Sequence record: MN445185.1
From: Escherichia phage vB_EcoM_EC001
Strand: one strand, 5' to 3'
DNA: 64,000 bases
The position numbers and the translations under genes are program-made. Below the pieces are notes generated by a model, which saw nothing but the letters and a program-made list of their open reading frames with translations, was not told where the DNA came from and made no database searches. Shown piece by piece: positions 8,371 to 58,350 of this stretch; the first letter of the stretch is position 1, and every line of letters begins with the position of its first letter.

Positions 8371-8430
8371 GGTAAATAAAGCCCTTACCCACTCCCCTTA
8401 CGGGAGTGGGTAAGCACTATTTATTTTCTT
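8371..8430. terminator. Bidirectional intrinsic terminator between convergent genes
   Basis: 13-bp stem CTTACCCACTCCC / GGGAGTGGGTAAG (8384-8396, 8402-8414), A-rich upstream and T-rich downstream. Confidence 0.7.
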
Positions 8431-8908
8431 CTAACGGAACAATCGTAACCGGGGTAGGAACTTCGTCAATAAAGCCGCCGCTGCAGCGAAAGAACGTCAT
8501 CCCTTTACCTTCCCCGGTATGCGGGTTCACATCCGAAAAAGAGTAAGTGGGGCCATCGTTTACGGTTTTATTAATACGGTAATAACGCTCACCTGTGGTG
8601 GTGTTAACATTCCCGTCGATTTTGCCAATTGTATCTTTAAACATCATCGGTGACTCAAGTTTGCCACCGTCCCACGTTGCTACCCAGTTTGCACCCACAT
8701 CCATTACTGTTACTGACCGCGGCATCATTTGTAGGTTGTCCAGTACCGGACGGTAGTCTATAAACTTCTCCTGTGTCCCTGTGCATGTATAAATCACCAA
8801 GTCGCGATTCTTTACCGGTGTGCTGCTAAATTGTCCGATGTTGCTTGGTGACTGGACGCAACCGGTCAACAGGCTTATAAACGCGAATACGATAAATAGA
8901 CGTTTCAT
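8417..8908 (-). CDS. Lipoprotein (signal peptide with lipobox LTGC)
   Basis: N-terminus MKRLFIVFAFISLLTGC; isolated minus-strand gene between a bidirectional terminator and a divergent intergenic region. Confidence 0.65.
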   Translation of the reverse strand: MKRLFIVFAFISLLTGCVQSPSNIGQFSSTPVKNRDLVIYTCTGTQEKFIDYRPVLDNLQMMPRSVTVMDVGANWVATWDGGKLESPMMFKDTIGKIDGNVNTTTGERYYRINKTVNDGPTYSFSDVNPHTGEGKGMTFFRCSGGFIDEVPTPVTIVPLEENK

Positions 8909-9032
8909 AAGGTATCCTTTCAGTGGTAAAAACTTTCTCGTTTAACAGCCAACTTTACTGTCATATTAAGCCCACTATGTATTTTTTAGAATGATTTAGT
9001 ATGCACCACAAACCTACTATAAGGAAACAACC

Positions 9033-9581
9033 ATGGCAGTCATCTCTGCAAAAGACCAACTCGTCGCGCTGTTTAATGCCGCAAACAGCGGACTGCCTAG
9101 TCCGTTAACTGCTGCTGACGTTACATTCGGCGCTGTTGCTGACTATTCACCAGCTGATTCTGGAGACACTCGCAACTCCAAACTCACCATCACCGCCACC
9201 GCGGAATCCGCTAACTTTACTGGCGAGAAAGAGCTGCATTATACCCGCCTCAATTTATCGGACTTCATCGGTGCGAAAGCAGTGACCGCTGACCAGGCAG
9301 AATGGGATACCGATGAAGAAGTGCTTGCTTTTGTCAACGCAGAACTATTTGGCGACGGTGAAACGGAAGATCCGTTTGCGTTGTCTGAACTCACCATTTC
9401 ACGCGAAGACGGCAGCAGTGGTGAGAAAGTCATCACTGTTATGGTGAAAGAAGGCCACATTAAATTCCAACCTGTCAGCCTTGGAGTTTATACTGTAACG
9501 CAGCCAATCGTTAAAACTGACCTGAGCACCACCAACGGTGAACTGGGCGGATTCGGCGGCGAAGGTCACGCTGGCATGTAA
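9033..9581 (+). CDS. Hypothetical protein
   Basis: RBS AAGGAA; C-terminal TTNGELGGF motif resembles the C-terminus of the 1..634 product. Confidence 0.5.
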   Translation: MAVISAKDQLVALFNAANSGLPSPLTAADVTFGAVADYSPADSGDTRNSKLTITATAESANFTGEKELHYTRLNLSDFIGAKAVTADQAEWDTDEEVLAFVNAELFGDGETEDPFALSELTISREDGSSGEKVITVMVKEGHIKFQPVSLGVYTVTQPIVKTDLSTTNGELGGFGGEGHAGM

Positions 9582-9610
9582 CAGAGCAATTAGTAGTTTC
9601 TAAGAAATAA

Positions 9611-9657
9611 ATAAAAGGTACCTACCTCCCTTCGGGGAGGTAGGGCCTTTATTTTCT
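9611..9657. terminator. Bidirectional intrinsic terminator (end of minus-strand operon and of 9033..9581)
   Basis: CCTACCTCCC-TTCG-GGGAGGTAGG hairpin flanked by A-run and T-run. Confidence 0.7.
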
Positions 9658-9661
9658 TTGC

Positions 9662-10333
9662 TTACATGCCGAGTGATTCGGACAATGTTTTTAATCCAGT
9701 GTAATCGCGCTTTTCAGCTAACTCACGGATTTGGCGTTTGTTATCTGCCATTGCTGAGTGCAACACCTGGTCGCGTGCAACAATAGCGGCCAACAACGCT
9801 TTACATTGGTCTACTGTAAACGGACTGTGCTTCGTATTCAGCGTATCGAGCCAGTATTCTGGTGCGGTATCTGCCTGAATGTATTGACCGAGGATGGTAC
9901 GCGACGATTCATCGGCTTGAAAGTGACTACCTTCAAACTCGATATAACCATGACGCTCATCTTCGTAGCGATGGTCAAGTTCCAACAGCATCTTCTGCAC
10001 GTCTTCGTAAATGTAACGTGCGGTAGATTTCAGATTCCCGCGAATTTCGTCGAGGTCAATCTCCAGCACATTAGCAATAAACTCTTTCGTGCGTTTCAAT
10101 GTGAATTTAGCTTCAATCTCCGACATCTCATACAGCTTCATGCGTGCCAGGGCTTCTTTATCAGACATCCCTTCGATGAGATGATAATGGAGCAGAGCGC
10201 AAAAGCCTGTACGGCCCTGATCCTGCGCACCGATTCGTTCCATGAAATTACCGTGACGATCAATCGGCAAATCACGCTGGAAATAACGGGCGCGGATCTC
10301 TTCGTTCGTTAAGCTTTTGTCAGTAACAGACAT
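9662..10333 (-). CDS. Hypothetical protein (last gene of the minus-strand operon)
   Basis: 223 aa ORF ending just before bidirectional terminator 9611..9657; no recognisable motif. Confidence 0.5.
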   Translation of the reverse strand: MSVTDKSLTNEEIRARYFQRDLPIDRHGNFMERIGAQDQGRTGFCALLHYHLIEGMSDKEALARMKLYEMSEIEAKFTLKRTKEFIANVLEIDLDEIRGNLKSTARYIYEDVQKMLLELDHRYEDERHGYIEFEGSHFQADESSRTILGQYIQADTAPEYWLDTLNTKHSPFTVDQCKALLAAIVARDQVLHSAMADNKRQIRELAEKRDYTGLKTLSESLGM

Positions 10334-56219: not shown

Positions 56220-56759
56220 ATGCAAATCGTAATTGACTTCGCTCTGTCGGAGTCGAGACGTCAGCTAGATGAAATTCTGTTAGGATTAAAACGTGACGTG
56301 GAATTTGAACTTCACGATGCGTTGGCCGTCCACGAAAATCGTTTGTCTGACGAAATAGGTTCGGGTGTAGATGTGACTATCTGTGACACTGGGGATATGG
56401 TAAATCAGCTTATTGAACGTATGTTCACGCGGCTGCGTAACATTCTGAACTATCCCCATCGTTTTGAACTGGTAGAAGGGACGGACCAAATCACCGACTT
56501 ATTGAGTGAAGCCTTTGATAAGGTCGGTGAGTCTCTGGCGGGGTTACATCAAGAGAACCTGGGCGAGACATACGTTGCTGTGGTCATTAACGGGCAATCA
56601 TCGAACGTCACGGACACGGTAACATGGTCTGATATCGTTGACCAGCCAATCATTGACAAAATCACCAAGTTGTATCGTGATGCGGAAATGAAGGTGCTGG
56701 CTATCTGTCGTCGTGAACTACTGTATCTCGGCGAGAAATATGGGAAACCTGCTGAATGA
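56220..56759 (+). CDS. Hypothetical protein
   Basis: 179 aa ORF with RBS AAGGAG. Confidence 0.5.
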   Translation: MQIVIDFALSESRRQLDEILLGLKRDVEFELHDALAVHENRLSDEIGSGVDVTICDTGDMVNQLIERMFTRLRNILNYPHRFELVEGTDQITDLLSEAFDKVGESLAGLHQENLGETYVAVVINGQSSNVTDTVTWSDIVDQPIIDKITKLYRDAEMKVLAICRRELLYLGEKYGKPAE

Positions 56760-57298
56760 AAATATTCATTGATTTACTCGATGACGAATTTCGCGAAATA
56801 TTTCCAGCGGCGTTGTTCGAGTTTAAACGCAAGTGTGAAGACTATCTAATACCGAAGAATATCGATCGTCAGCACCTCGCCGGGCTTATCTCTGCGGCGT
56901 ACGTCAACATCGCGGTAAATGAAGTTCATCAACTCGCCCAGCGTATTGCGTGTTTCGAATACAACGACGAAGACATTGAAGACGGCTTCCTGCAGTCTAA
57001 GATGGGTCGCTTCTCACTCGAACTCAAGACCGATGAAGTTATTGATAAGGTCGGTAAAGCGTTTGATGAAATGAAAGACATCGAAATGATGATTAAAATG
57101 TCTGGACCGGAAGCTGGGCCGTTGAAAGAAGCGTGGGAAAATCTCAACCGCGAAGGGTATAAAAAGATGTATATGGAGGAGTTCACCACTATGCTACGTC
57201 ATCTCGAAGCGCAGATCTGGGAGCATATCGTTTCACGTCTGAAAGAAATACTGATTGTGGTCGAACCAATGCAGCCCATCACTATTGGCAATTTCTAG
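56756..57298 (+). CDS. Hypothetical protein
   Basis: 180 aa ORF; ATGA overlap with the previous gene; followed by terminator 57303..57337. Confidence 0.5.
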   Translation: MKIFIDLLDDEFREIFPAALFEFKRKCEDYLIPKNIDRQHLAGLISAAYVNIAVNEVHQLAQRIACFEYNDEDIEDGFLQSKMGRFSLELKTDEVIDKVGKAFDEMKDIEMMIKMSGPEAGPLKEAWENLNREGYKKMYMEEFTTMLRHLEAQIWEHIVSRLKEILIVVEPMQPITIGNF

Positions 57299-57302
57299 TT
57301 AA

Positions 57303-57337
57303 ACGGACACTCTTCGGGGTGTCCGTAGTTTTATTTT
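57303..57337 (+). terminator. Intrinsic terminator
   Basis: ACGGACAC...GTGTCCGT hairpin followed by AGTTTTATTTT. Confidence 0.6.
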
Positions 57338-57366
57338 AATCGACCATTAATCTAAAGGAGTATTAA

Positions 57367-58290
57367 ATGGACAGCTTTCTTTTTGATTTGGCAGAATCGG
57401 TAAATGTAGATGTAATCGGTATGCGCGAATCCCCGAGTAATTTCTTAAACGGTCTTACTAAAATCGACGAACGTGTGAAATCCAGAAGTGGAGATCCCGC
57501 CATCATCGAGCAATACGCAATAGCCCATTGTGGCGAGATAGGCCAGCACTTTATACCGATTGAGGCGTTCCTAAAGAACTGCTTCGCCGAAGAATGCACC
57601 GCAGACTTCCTGTCTCTTGCCTACGGCTGGCGATACGGGGGTATCCAAATGGAATTTGATCTTAATATTTTTGAACAAGTTCTACTTGGCGACGTTCTCA
57701 CTGAGATACCACGCAGCTGGATAGACAAGATTCCCGGTTGGGCCGTCTCCTTTTCAGTGTGCTATCGCGCTAAAGATATCGGTATCCAAGAAAAGACTTA
57801 CGTTTTCGGTCGGCGAATGTTTAAAGGGAAAGATTGTTTAACAATGATGATTTTTGGAAAACGTATCGAGGGGGAAACCTTTGAAATCGTGGACGTGGGT
57901 GACGGCTTTGTATCCTTGCGTGTGGCGGAAACTGGTACGCCGGCCAATGAGAAAACGTTACGCATTGTCGGCGCTACCATGTTTACATTCTCACTGATCC
58001 CGCACAACCCTACACCCGTCAAACTGAGACAATTAACTGGAAAGAAACGTATCGCCAATTACCACATTGAACCAAAATCTAAACCGACTGTCCTCTCCAC
58101 CGTAAAAGCACAAAGCGAGTATCTTGAAGAATTTGATACTGATACGGAGAAAAGAACACAAGGTAGCAGATGTGCGCATATGCGTCGTGCACACTGGTGT
58201 ACTTACTGGCTCGGTCCACGTGACGGGAATCGGACAAAGATTTTGAAATGGATACCGCCGACATTTGTCAACGGTTCTAAATGCAAATAA
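57367..58290 (+). CDS. Hypothetical protein
   Basis: 307 aa ORF with RBS AAAGGAG; followed by bidirectional terminator. Confidence 0.5.
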   Translation: MDSFLFDLAESVNVDVIGMRESPSNFLNGLTKIDERVKSRSGDPAIIEQYAIAHCGEIGQHFIPIEAFLKNCFAEECTADFLSLAYGWRYGGIQMEFDLNIFEQVLLGDVLTEIPRSWIDKIPGWAVSFSVCYRAKDIGIQEKTYVFGRRMFKGKDCLTMMIFGKRIEGETFEIVDVGDGFVSLRVAETGTPANEKTLRIVGATMFTFSLIPHNPTPVKLRQLTGKKRIANYHIEPKSKPTVLSTVKAQSEYLEEFDTDTEKRTQGSRCAHMRRAHWCTYWLGPRDGNRTKILKWIPPTFVNGSKCK

Positions 58291-58350
58291 AATAAAGCCT
58301 ACCCACTCCCCTTATGGGAGTGGGTAATGCTTATTTTTTTTTTATTTTTT
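58289..58350. terminator. Bidirectional intrinsic terminator
   Basis: TACCCACTCCC-CTTAT-GGGAGTGGGTA hairpin (58300-58326), A-run upstream and a long T-run downstream. Confidence 0.7.

What the first reader, a model, noticed from the sequence alone, without database searches (positions are those of the whole stretch)
8384..58326. Family of terminator hairpins with near-identical stems reused across the window
The stems at 8384-8414 (CTTACCCACTCCC/GGGAGTGGGTAAG) and 58300-58326 (TACCCACTCCC/GGGAGTGGGTA) are almost the same sequence. Related stems occur at 48480-48505 (CTACCTACTCCC), 9621-9644 (CCTACCTCCC) and 30824-30846 (CCCTACTCCC). This suggests duplication of a terminator cassette, possibly a mobile mini-element or recombination hotspot bracketing accessory genes (three of the five bracket isolated minus-strand genes).
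Basis: seen in the sequence. Interest (0 to 1): 0.35.

Follow-up and report, generated by a model that had tools for sequence, protein, structure and literature searches.

The report
Two-way transcription stop hairpins, jumbo phage
The five look-alike hairpins are two-directional transcription stop signals placed wherever genes on opposite strands meet tail to tail in a SPN3US-like giant phage; this is an ordinary kind of element, but related phages show that whole hairpin cassettes are occasionally copied from one such junction to another and that their loops often flip.

Summary
The window is a SPN3US-like jumbo phage (Seoulvirus, about 97% identical). All five hairpins lie in the five non-overlapping intergenic gaps where a plus-strand gene meets a minus-strand gene tail to tail. 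Each is a perfect 10-13 bp palindrome with an A-tract upstream and a T-tract downstream, and each folds strongly on both strands. They are therefore bidirectional intrinsic terminators.

They share a style: a G-free, C-rich 5' arm ending in CTCC(C), a purine 3' arm, and TTAT in the tail. This is the style of the conserved terminator motif mapped experimentally in phiKZ and 201phi2-1.

The resemblance has three sources:
- **Narrow consensus:** the sequences stay within a small range.
- **Vertical descent:** orthologous hairpins persist across three genera.
- **Cassette copying:** distant junctions sometimes share stem, loop and flanks. Examples are H1/H5 here and a 50-nt cassette at two junctions in Machinavirus phages.

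Loops are reverse-complemented between close relatives at four of the five sites. Gene content varies beside H1, H2 and H5, but no indel is bounded by two hairpin copies. The elements are absent from enterobacterial genomes. They are not a transposing mini-element and not T4-type PeSLs.

Verdict: new member of a known kind, with modest interest.

The parts
8384..8414 (.). H1: bidirectional terminator hairpin (13-bp stem CTTACCCACTCCC, loop cttac). It lies between gp108-like (+, ends 8291) and gp107-like (-, ends 8417). The A-tract is at 8375-8381 and the T-rich tail at 8420-8427.
   Evidence: RNA folding gives -27.8 kcal/mol (+) and -33.0 kcal/mol (-), z -5.1 and -6.5. The ortholog is conserved in SPAsTU, Asesino and a PhiEaH2-like contig.
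9621..9644 (.). H2: bidirectional terminator hairpin (10-bp stem CCTACCTCCC, loop ttcg). It lies between gp106-like (+) and the long minus-strand block that starts with gp105-like.
   Evidence: The loop is reverse-complemented (cgaa) in SPN3US, Proteus phage 7 and phage 1252. Asesino and SPAsTU carry different stems at this junction.
30823..30847 (.). H3: bidirectional terminator hairpin (11-bp stem ACCCTACTCCC, loop gtt). It lies between gp095-like (+) and the BhsA-like gp094 (-).
   Evidence: Eight Seoulvirus genomes show four loop states: gtt, aac, aat, att. The core CCTACTCCC is conserved in SPAsTU and Asesino.
48480..48505 (.). H4: bidirectional terminator hairpin (11-bp stem CTACCTACTCC, loop cttg). 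It lies between gp065-like (+) and gp064-like DUF7194 (-).
   Evidence: The stem is identical in SPN3US, SPAsTU, pEa_SNUABM_29 and Asesino, with loops cttg, caag, ctag and ttcg.
58300..58326 (.). H5: bidirectional terminator hairpin (11-bp stem TACCCACTCCC, loop cttat). It lies between the 307-aa accessory gene (+) and gp052-like (-).
   Evidence: The stem, upstream flank and loop match H1. The loop is gtaag (the reverse complement of H1's cttac) in SPN3US, Lh1B, Proteus phage 7, SPFM19 and phage 1252, and gtagg in SPLA5c. Other stems occupy this junction in other phages.
57298..58284 (+). Variable module next to H5: unidirectional terminator 57303-57326, a ribosome-binding site and a 307-aa gene (57367-58290, phrog_6160, function unknown). 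It is context for the hairpin family, not part of it.
   Evidence: Present in the window, JN03 and Lh1B. Absent from SPN3US and most relatives. SaP7 has an allele about 40% identical (132 identical columns in a 328-column alignment) together with a different hairpin. Asesino has a gene of matching size and position (gp235), which I did not compare.
8417..9581 (.). Interval between H1 and H2: a divergent gene pair, gp107-like (-) and gp106-like DUF7941 (+). The plus-strand part is a tandem paralogue array of variable length in relatives.
   Evidence: There is 1 copy here and in SPN3US, 2 in Asesino and 4 in SPAsTU.

Best explanation
**What they are.** The five hairpins are bidirectional, factor-independent transcription terminators of a SPN3US-like jumbo phage. 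Each sits where a plus-strand and a minus-strand transcription unit converge.

**How they work (inferred from anatomy and from mapped relatives).**
- The stem is a perfect palindrome, flanked by an A-tract on one side and a T-tract on the other.
- An RNA polymerase arriving from either side therefore transcribes the same G-free, C-rich 5' arm, a short loop, a purine 3' arm and a U-rich tail containing UUAU. It then releases the transcript.
- This prevents polymerase collision and antisense read-through.
- In this phage group the polymerases concerned are presumably the phage's own multisubunit enzymes (background knowledge).

**Why they look alike (shown by comparison).**
1. All terminators of the lineage are drawn toward a narrow consensus, roughly CTACC[C/T]ACTCC-loop-GGAGT[G/A]GGTAG plus TTAT. 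This is the same style as the conserved phiKZ motif.
2. Each hairpin is inherited vertically at its junction across genera. Changes occur as compensated pairs.
3. Now and then a 40-50 nt cassette (A-tract, stem, loop, T-tract) at one convergent junction is overwritten by a copy from another. The mechanism (ectopic gene conversion or replacement) is inferred.

**Loop flips.** The loops are reverse-complemented often between close relatives. This is the expected product of strand switching or recombination within a palindrome. It is likely neutral in a two-way terminator.
For: **Position.**
- In the window, 5 of 5 non-overlapping convergent intergenic gaps hold one of these hairpins.
- By my reading of the SPN3US annotation, 15 of 15 such gaps hold a perfect hairpin of at least 9 bp.

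**Structure.** Both strands of all five fold at -20 to -33 kcal/mol, with z from -4.5 to -8.0 and 0 of 200 shuffles as good.

**Tracts.** Both an A-tract and a T-tract are present.

**Style.**
- The sense 5' arms at convergent junctions are 56% C and 4% G, against 20% G at other terminators.
- TTAT lies within 12 nt of the stem in 35 of 68 tails, against 20.2 +/- 3.3 in shuffles with a maximum of 32.

**Precedent.**
- ONT-cappable-seq mapped 61 phiKZ intrinsic terminators with the motif BCCYCCCCHWWDGGGRRGGBYTTATKYYGT. It also mapped 6 bidirectional terminator regions between convergent genes (PMC10914365).
- 201phi2-1 has a similar motif (n = 59) and 15 bidirectional sites (PMC11512511).

**Vertical descent.** The H4 stem is identical in four phages of two genera. 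H1 and H3 are conserved, with loops free to vary.

**Consensus drift.** At junction gp219|gp218 the same flanks carry CTACCCACTCC, CTACCTACTCC or CTACCCTCTCC in different phages.

**Copying.** Paralogues within one genome share non-standard loops and flanks:
- H1/H5: cttac | gtaag.
- Erskinevirus-like H1 and gp223|gp222: tttgcg.
- Machinavirus gp219|gp218 and H4: a 50-nt identical cassette in three phages whose flanking DNA is 83-92% identical.
- Contig 2706796186, gp223|gp222 and H5: cgat | atcg.

**Loop flips.** They occur at H2, H3, H4, H5 and terminator 38704 among 8 Seoulvirus genomes, and in three further pairs of relatives.
Against: - No transcript 3' ends are available for this phage or any Seoulvirus, so termination in either direction is inferred from sequence and from distant relatives.
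- The plus-strand tail of H3 has its T-run displaced 8 nt from the stem, and H4's plus tail lacks TTAT. Efficiencies may therefore differ by direction.
- The loops do not fit the phiKZ loop consensus HWWD well.
- Copying between junctions rests on shared loops and flanks in a handful of lineages. Strong purifying selection on an ancient duplication could give the same picture in the Machinavirus case.
- The H4 'inversion' (cttg/caag) can also be reached by two point changes through the ctag seen in SPAsTU.
Confidence: 0.8

Rival explanations
1. The hairpins are copies of a small mobile palindromic element (MITE- or REP-like). On this view it inserts at new sites and happens to terminate transcription.
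For: - Stems are near-identical at distant sites.
- The number of copies of the exact stem TACCCACTCC varies from 1 to 4 among ~240-kb relatives.
Against: - Every copy mapped lies at a gene junction that also carries a terminator hairpin in the other phages. This is replacement, not insertion.
- There are no target-site duplications and no flank similarity beyond the A and T tracts.
- 596 Gb of bacterial genomes give only 8 exact matches. All are in unrelated taxa and none in Enterobacteriaceae, which is about the chance level by my estimate of roughly 3.
Confidence: 0.03
2. They are PeSL-like recombination cassettes, as in T4-type phages. On this view homologous exchange between repeated regulatory cassettes drives insertion, deletion and swapping of the accessory genes between them.
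For: - Gene content differs among relatives immediately beside H1, H2 and H5.
- In SPAsTU the H2 junction carries the stem and loop that SPN3US has at gp223|gp222 (CCTCTCTACC ctag).
- Cassettes are copied between junctions.
- PeSLs are described in PMC2839356 and PMC4122927.
Against: - The 987-nt indel at H5 runs from the gp053 stop to the A-tract of H5. Its left edge is a different terminator (57303-57326), not a family copy.
- In SaP7 the replaced block is the ORF plus the hairpin, with homology resuming in the flanking genes.
- No promoter half is evident.
- The elements are palindromic singletons at convergent junctions, not direct repeats flanking genes.
- Gene order across the window is collinear from Seoulvirus to Erskinevirus.
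Confidence: 0.12
3. The resemblance is pure convergence on a functional optimum, with no copying at all. Each junction evolved its hairpin independently toward the sequence that the phage polymerase terminates on best.
For: - A lineage-wide consensus exists.
- Stem types differ by single compensated pairs and interconvert at orthologous sites.
- The hairpins at convergent junctions are the most consensus-like.
Against: - Loops and A/T-tract flanks vary freely between orthologues.
- Yet they are identical (or exactly reverse-complemented) between paralogues inside one genome in at least four lineages. One case is a 50-nt identical run.
- By my rough estimate, about 0.01 such loop matches are expected by chance among roughly a dozen identical-stem pairs.
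Confidence: 0.1
4. The palindromes act mainly at the DNA level and are only incidentally terminator-like. For example, they could be cruciform or protein-binding sites for replication, packaging or the phage SbcCD-like nuclease.
For: - They are perfect palindromes.
- The phage encodes SbcC/SbcD-like proteins (window 39474-41984; SPN3US gp239).
- Frequent loop inversions show DNA-level hairpin activity.
Against: - They are strictly placed at gene 3' ends with oriented A and T tracts.
- Stems change by compensated pairs, so pairing rather than sequence is conserved.
- Unidirectional terminators of the same style carry the loop TTCG (10 of the plus-only sites) and never CGAA. That points to an RNA-level UUCG tetraloop.
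Confidence: 0.04

Closest known systems
Conserved intrinsic terminator motif of phiKZ-like jumbo phages (phiKZ: BCCYCCCCHWWDGGGRRGGBYTTATKYYGT, 61 sites; 201phi2-1 motif A, 59 sites), including their bidirectional terminator regions between convergent genes (PMC10914365, PMC11512511)
   Same: - The 5' arm is C-rich and G-poor, ending in CCC at the loop.
- The 3' arm is purine-rich, starting with GGG.
- TTAT lies in the tail.
- There are many copies per genome.
- The two-way versions sit between convergent genes.
- The phage is a jumbo phage that encodes its own multisubunit RNA polymerases (beta-subunit genes are annotated in SPN3US).
   Different: - Stems here are longer (10-13 bp against about 7) and carry a TACC/ACT extension.
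- Loops do not fit HWWD.
- No experimental 3'-end mapping exists for this lineage.
- Sequence homology with the phiKZ sites was not tested, so the similarity is of style only.
Bacterial bidirectional intrinsic terminators at convergent gene pairs (for example as analysed in Bacillus cereus, PMC5381666)
   Same: - One palindromic hairpin with an A-tract and a T-tract serves both converging genes.
- Such shared terminators are more conserved than one-way ones and evolve by compensatory changes.
   Different: - Here the stems form a recognisable sequence family.
- Cassettes are copied between junctions.
- The polymerase is presumably phage-encoded.
PeSL promoter-terminator cassettes of T4-type phages (PMC2839356, PMC4122927)
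   Same: - They are short repeated regulatory cassettes that contain an effective stem-loop terminator.
- They are found next to variable accessory genes.
- Similarity between copies permits recombination.
   Different: - No promoter half is present here.
- The elements are palindromic, at convergent junctions, and occur singly rather than as flanking direct repeats.
- The observed indels are not bounded by two copies.
Hairpin-associated small inversions in chloroplast spacers (for example trnH-psbA, PMC2903610)
   Same: The loop between two perfect inverted-repeat arms is found in both orientations among very close relatives, recurrently.
   Different: - The genome type differs.
- Here the hairpins are two-way terminators, so the flip swaps which transcript receives a given loop (for example UUCG).

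Membership tests
Bidirectional intrinsic terminator | Stable G+C-rich stem-loop in the RNA of both strands | tested here: met
   Perfect 10-13 bp stems. Both strands fold at -20 to -33 kcal/mol, z -4.5 to -8.0.
Bidirectional intrinsic terminator | U-rich tract after the stem in both transcription directions (A-tract upstream, T-tract downstream on the DNA) | tested here: met
   The H3 plus-strand T-run starts 8 nt after the stem, so it is weaker.
Bidirectional intrinsic terminator | Located between the 3' ends of convergent genes | tested here: met
   5 of 5 in the window. 15 of 15 non-overlapping convergent gaps in SPN3US.
Bidirectional intrinsic terminator | Transcript 3' ends on both strands at the site | not testable with these tools
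   No transcript data for this lineage was found. Mapped only in phiKZ and 201phi2-1.
phiKZ-type conserved terminator motif | C-rich 5' arm (CCYCCCC) and G/purine 3' arm (GGGRRGG) closing the loop | tested here: met
   CTCCC..GGGAG is present in all five. The sense 5' arms at convergent junctions are 56% C and 4% G.
phiKZ-type conserved terminator motif | TTAT shortly after the stem | tested here: met
   By my reading, 8 of the 10 strand-specific tails of the five hairpins have it. Genome-wide the count is 35 of 68 against 20.2 +/- 3.3 shuffled.
phiKZ-type conserved terminator motif | Four-base A/T-rich loop HWWD | tested here: inconclusive
   Loops here are cttac, ttcg, gtt, cttg and cttat. 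TTCG dominates genome-wide.
phiKZ-type conserved terminator motif | Common descent with the phiKZ sites | not tested
   Only the published consensus was compared. phiKZ sequence was not fetched.
PeSL (T4-type mobile regulatory cassette) | Composite of a strong early promoter joined to the stem-loop | tested here: not met
   Only one sigma-70-like consensus hit lies next to a family hairpin (58265-58293). Such hits are at or below the shuffle level. The phage's own promoter type could not be scanned.
PeSL (T4-type mobile regulatory cassette) | Indels and replacements between close relatives bounded by two cassette copies | tested here: not met
   The H5 indel is bounded by a different terminator on the left. 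The SaP7 replacement includes the hairpin itself.
MITE/REP-like mobile palindromic element | Presence/absence polymorphism of the element at otherwise intact sites, with target duplication | tested here: not met
   Every located orthologous copy of these junctions has a hairpin in every relative examined. Only the stem type changes.
MITE/REP-like mobile palindromic element | Spread through host or other bacterial genomes | tested here: not met
   8 exact matches in 596 Gb, in unrelated taxa.

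The most novel reading that the evidence does not exclude
The two-way terminators of SPN3US-like, Erskinevirus and Machinavirus jumbo phages may form a concertedly evolving family of recombination-active palindromes. On this reading:
- 40-50 nt cassettes are repeatedly copied between convergent junctions more than 100 kb apart.
- Their loops flip at a high rate.
- Hairpin-stimulated breakage and repair, perhaps through the phage's own SbcCD-like nuclease and UvsX-like recombinase, makes these junctions preferred boundaries for gain, loss and exchange of accessory genes. 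This would be a convergent-junction counterpart of the T4 PeSLs.
Probability: 0.3. Interest if true: 0.5.

Novelty: new member of a known kind. Interest (0 to 1): 0.3.

Why it matters
**Practical uses**
- The hairpins give exact boundaries for the transcription units of a poorly annotated jumbo phage.
- They offer compact two-way terminators that should work with a non-host polymerase.

**Caution for phage comparisons**
- A single loop flip looks like 3-5 point differences.
- Cassette copying makes unrelated junctions align. In one search a 600-bp query hit two places in each of five of the six matching records for this reason. Both effects can mislead SNP trees and synteny tools.

**Biological interest**
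- The narrow, lineage-specific stem consensus hints at what the phage-encoded multisubunit polymerases require for termination.
- If the copying and flipping reflect hairpin-stimulated recombination, these sites would help explain where accessory genes come and go in chimallivirus-like genomes.

Tried and rejected
1. **Rfam.** A scan of the whole window at gathering thresholds found nothing.
2. **Retracted inversion.** I first read the loops of contigs 2595698952 (TTTGCG) and 3300031418 (CGCAAA) as an inversion. The flanks are reverse complements too, so it is only locus orientation.
3. **Stem types as markers of copying.** The patchwork of H1-type, H4-type and H3-type stems at orthologous junctions at first looked like wholesale cassette shuffling. 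Junction gp219|gp218 shows that these types differ by one compensated pair with unchanged flanks. Stem type alone is therefore not evidence of copying, and only shared loops and flanks were counted.
4. **The search for related loci.** Queries with single proteins returned few loci (4-14 per junction), so the junction-by-genome matrix is incomplete.
5. **Accessory gene function.** Pfam gives nothing and PHROGs gives only phrog_6160 (unknown function) for the 307-aa gene. No homing-endonuclease or transposase signature explains the indel at H5.
6. **Bacterial origin.** The exact stem is at chance level in bacterial genomes.
7. **Literature.** No transcriptome or terminator analysis of SPN3US was found.
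8. **Not attempted.** I did not test whether recombination breakpoints are enriched at the hairpins among the eight aligned Seoulvirus genomes. Five sites give too little power.

Full report
**Identity of the window.** Megablast of window 8000-12000 finds 38 phage records, 30 of them at 95-99% identity. SEGD1 and Salmonella phage SPN3US head the list at 97.2% and 97.0%. The window corresponds roughly to SPN3US 129.2-193.2 kb. I fetched the whole SPN3US genome with its annotation. I also fetched the homologous 50 kb from six more Seoulvirus genomes: Lh1B, JN03, Proteus phage 7, SPLA5c, SPFM19 and phage 1252. Further regions came from SaP7 and from the more distant SPAsTU, pEa_SNUABM_29 and Asesino, the last being genus Erskinevirus.

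**Check of the observation.** All five hairpins are at the stated coordinates with the stated stems. They are the five longest G+C-rich perfect palindromes with both an A-tract and a T-tract in the window.
- The core ACTCC..GGAGT occurs four times, against 0.16 expected.
- CTCCC..GGGAG occurs six times, against 0.13 expected.
- Among the 16 terminator-like hairpins of the window, seven pairs share at least 8 of 9 arm bases. Shuffling each arm gives 0.87 +/- 0.92, with a maximum of 5 in 300.
- In the SPN3US genome the figure is 21 pairs, against 4.8 +/- 2.3.

The family resemblance is therefore real, even allowing for the skewed composition of the arms.

**What they are.** The gene map shows that every one of the five lies in a gap where a plus-strand gene and a minus-strand gene end tail to tail: 8291|8417, 9581|9662, 30815|30878, 48460|48518 and 58290|58342. 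These are all the non-overlapping convergent gaps in the window.
- By my reading of the SPN3US annotation, 15 of 15 such gaps contain a perfect hairpin of at least 9 bp.
- Each hairpin has an A-tract upstream and a T-tract downstream.
- Both strands fold into the hairpin at -20 to -33 kcal/mol, with z from -4.5 to -8.0.
- No Rfam family matches.

This is the anatomy of a bidirectional intrinsic terminator. Any minus-strand block inside a plus-strand genome has one convergent end, and the hairpin marks only that end.

**Why the stems resemble each other: consensus.** In SPN3US the sense 5' arms of hairpins at convergent junctions are 56% C and only 4% G, against 20% G at other terminators. TTAT lies within 12 nt of the stem in 35 of 68 tails, against 20.2 +/- 3.3 in shuffled tails. 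This is the style of the conserved terminator motif found by 3'-end mapping in phiKZ: BCCYCCCCHWWDGGGRRGGBYTTATKYYGT, at 61 sites. That study also found six bidirectional terminator regions between convergent genes (PMC10914365). The motif recurs in 201phi2-1, with 59 sites and 15 bidirectional ends (PMC11512511). SPN3US, like those phages, encodes its own multisubunit RNA polymerase subunits. From background knowledge, I take a polymerase-specific optimum to be the likely reason for the narrow consensus.

**Why they resemble each other: descent.** Orthologous junctions keep their hairpins across genera.
- The H4 stem CTACCTACTCC is identical in SPN3US, SPAsTU, pEa_SNUABM_29 and Asesino, while the loop varies: cttg, caag, ctag, ttcg.
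- H1 and H3 are also conserved.
- Where stems differ, both arms have changed together. H5 is TACCCACTCCC in SPN3US and CTGCCTACCCC in SPAsTU.
- At junction gp219|gp218 the same flanks carry CTACCCACTCC, CTACCTACTCC or CTACCCTCTCC in different phages.

**Why they resemble each other: copying.** Loops and tract flanks are free to vary between orthologues. Yet paralogues inside one genome repeatedly share them.
- H1 and H5 of the SPN3US group share the flank AAATAAAGCC, the stem, and the loop cttac. That loop is gtaag, its reverse complement, at H5 in five of the six other genomes where H5 was read (gtagg in SPLA5c) and cttat in the window and JN03.
- In Asesino-like and PhiEaH2-like contigs, H1 and the gp223|gp222 junction share TACCCACTCC-tttgcg.
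- In contig 2706796186, gp223|gp222 and H5 share CTACCTACTCC with cgat and atcg.
- In ChrisDB, pEa_SNUABM_9 and pEa_SNUABM_4, the gp219|gp218 and H4 junctions lie 130 kb apart. Both carry the same ~50-nt run AAATAAAAGCAC-TACCCACTCC-TTTACG-GGAGTGGGTA-GCTTTCTTTTTT, although the flanking DNA of these phages is only 83-92% identical.

By my rough estimate, about 0.01 such loop matches would be expected by chance among the dozen identical-stem pairs examined. I conclude that a resident terminator is occasionally overwritten by a copy from another junction. Gene conversion is the inferred mechanism and was not shown.

**Loop flips.** Among eight Seoulvirus genomes the loops take the following states.

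| Site | States seen |
|---|---|
| H2 | ttcg in five genomes, cgaa in three |
| H3 | gtt, aac, aat, att |
| H4 | cttg or caag |
| H5 | cttat, gtaag or gtagg |
| Terminator 38704 | inverted in Lh1B only |

- H2 and H4 together show all four state combinations, so flips are recurrent or are shuffled by recombination.
- Further flips separate Asesino from contig 3300031418 at H5, two 3300045988 contigs at gp223|gp222, and pEa_SNUABM_9 from its relatives at H4.
- H1 and the one-way TTCG terminators at 39388, 46954 and 51560 do not flip.
- In SPN3US, ten of the plus-only terminators have the loop TTCG and none has CGAA, whereas two-way hairpins carry either.

I infer that loop orientation is selected in one-way terminators, for a UUCG tetraloop, and is neutral in two-way ones. 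The phenomenon itself is known from chloroplast spacers (PMC2903610).

**Test of the mobile-element and hotspot idea.** The exact stem TACCCACTCC..GGAGTGGGTA is concentrated in ~240-kb relatives in the viral collection. It occurs only eight times in 596 Gb of bacterial genomes, in unrelated taxa.

Gene content does vary beside three hairpins.
- **H5.** The 307-aa gene at 57367-58290 is present in the window, JN03 and Lh1B, and absent from SPN3US and most relatives. SaP7 has an allele about 40% identical instead. Asesino has a gene of matching size at this position.
- **H1-H2 interval.** It holds 1, 2 or 4 gp106-like paralogues.
- **H1.** gp108 is missing in Asesino.

The boundaries do not fit a repeat-mediated model. 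The SPN3US indel spans window 57298-58284, bounded on the left by a different terminator. The SaP7 replacement spans 57368-58339, which is the ORF plus the hairpin, with homology resuming in the neighbouring genes. The hairpin there travels with its gene.

This differs from T4 PeSLs, which are promoter-plus-stem-loop direct repeats flanking the exchanged genes (PMC2839356, PMC4122927).

**Verdict.** The finding is a correct observation of ordinary elements: two-way intrinsic terminators of the conserved style already mapped in phiKZ-like jumbo phages. 'Mobile mini-element' is not supported. The cassette copying and the frequent loop flips are modest additions that I did not find described for phages in the held literature.

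Noticed in passing
window 9621-9644, 30823-30847, 48480-48505, 58300-58326, 38704-38723: The loops of these palindromic terminators are exactly reverse-complemented between phages that are 95-99% identical. H2 and H4 show all four state combinations among eight genomes. One-way TTCG terminators in the same region never flip.
   Followed up: partly
window 57367-58290: A 307-aa gene of unknown function (phrog_6160, no Pfam hit) is a presence/absence polymorphism among Seoulvirus genomes. SaP7 carries a second allele about 40% identical at the same position. Both alleles share a C-terminal motif KAHMRRAHW..W.GPRDG.
   Followed up: partly
window 9033-9581 and the homologous regions L033:4604-5715 and L034:27656-29919: The gp106-like gene (DUF7941, related to virion structural protein PHROGs) is a tandem paralogue array. 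It has one copy here, two in Asesino and four in SPAsTU.
   Followed up: partly
window 8292-8383: The ~90-nt non-coding spacer between the gp108 stop and H1 has blocks conserved from Seoulvirus to Erskinevirus: CATTTATC, CTTAG and GAGGG.AAATAAAG. In Asesino it follows gp173 directly. It could be a 3'UTR-derived small RNA or a regulatory site.
   Followed up: partly
window 51560-51583; SPN3US 67345, 94154 and 180981: A second set of identical one-way terminators, CCCTCTTACC-ttcg-GGTAAGAGGG, occurs three times in SPN3US with unrelated flanks.
   Followed up: no
window 35297-35616: The gene just upstream of terminator 35590 is 95 aa here and 94 aa in Lh1B, but 175 aa (gp088) in SPN3US and similarly long in the other relatives. 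This is another length polymorphism that ends at a terminator.
   Followed up: no
window 13980-15100: The small-ORF region between gp101-like and gp099-like is annotated very differently among close relatives (one to three small genes), so it may be another variable spot.
   Followed up: no
window 39474-41984: The phage encodes an SMC/SbcC-like protein here, and SPN3US gp239 is an SbcD-like subunit of a palindrome-specific nuclease. These might act on the many perfect palindromic terminators. This link is speculative.
   Followed up: no
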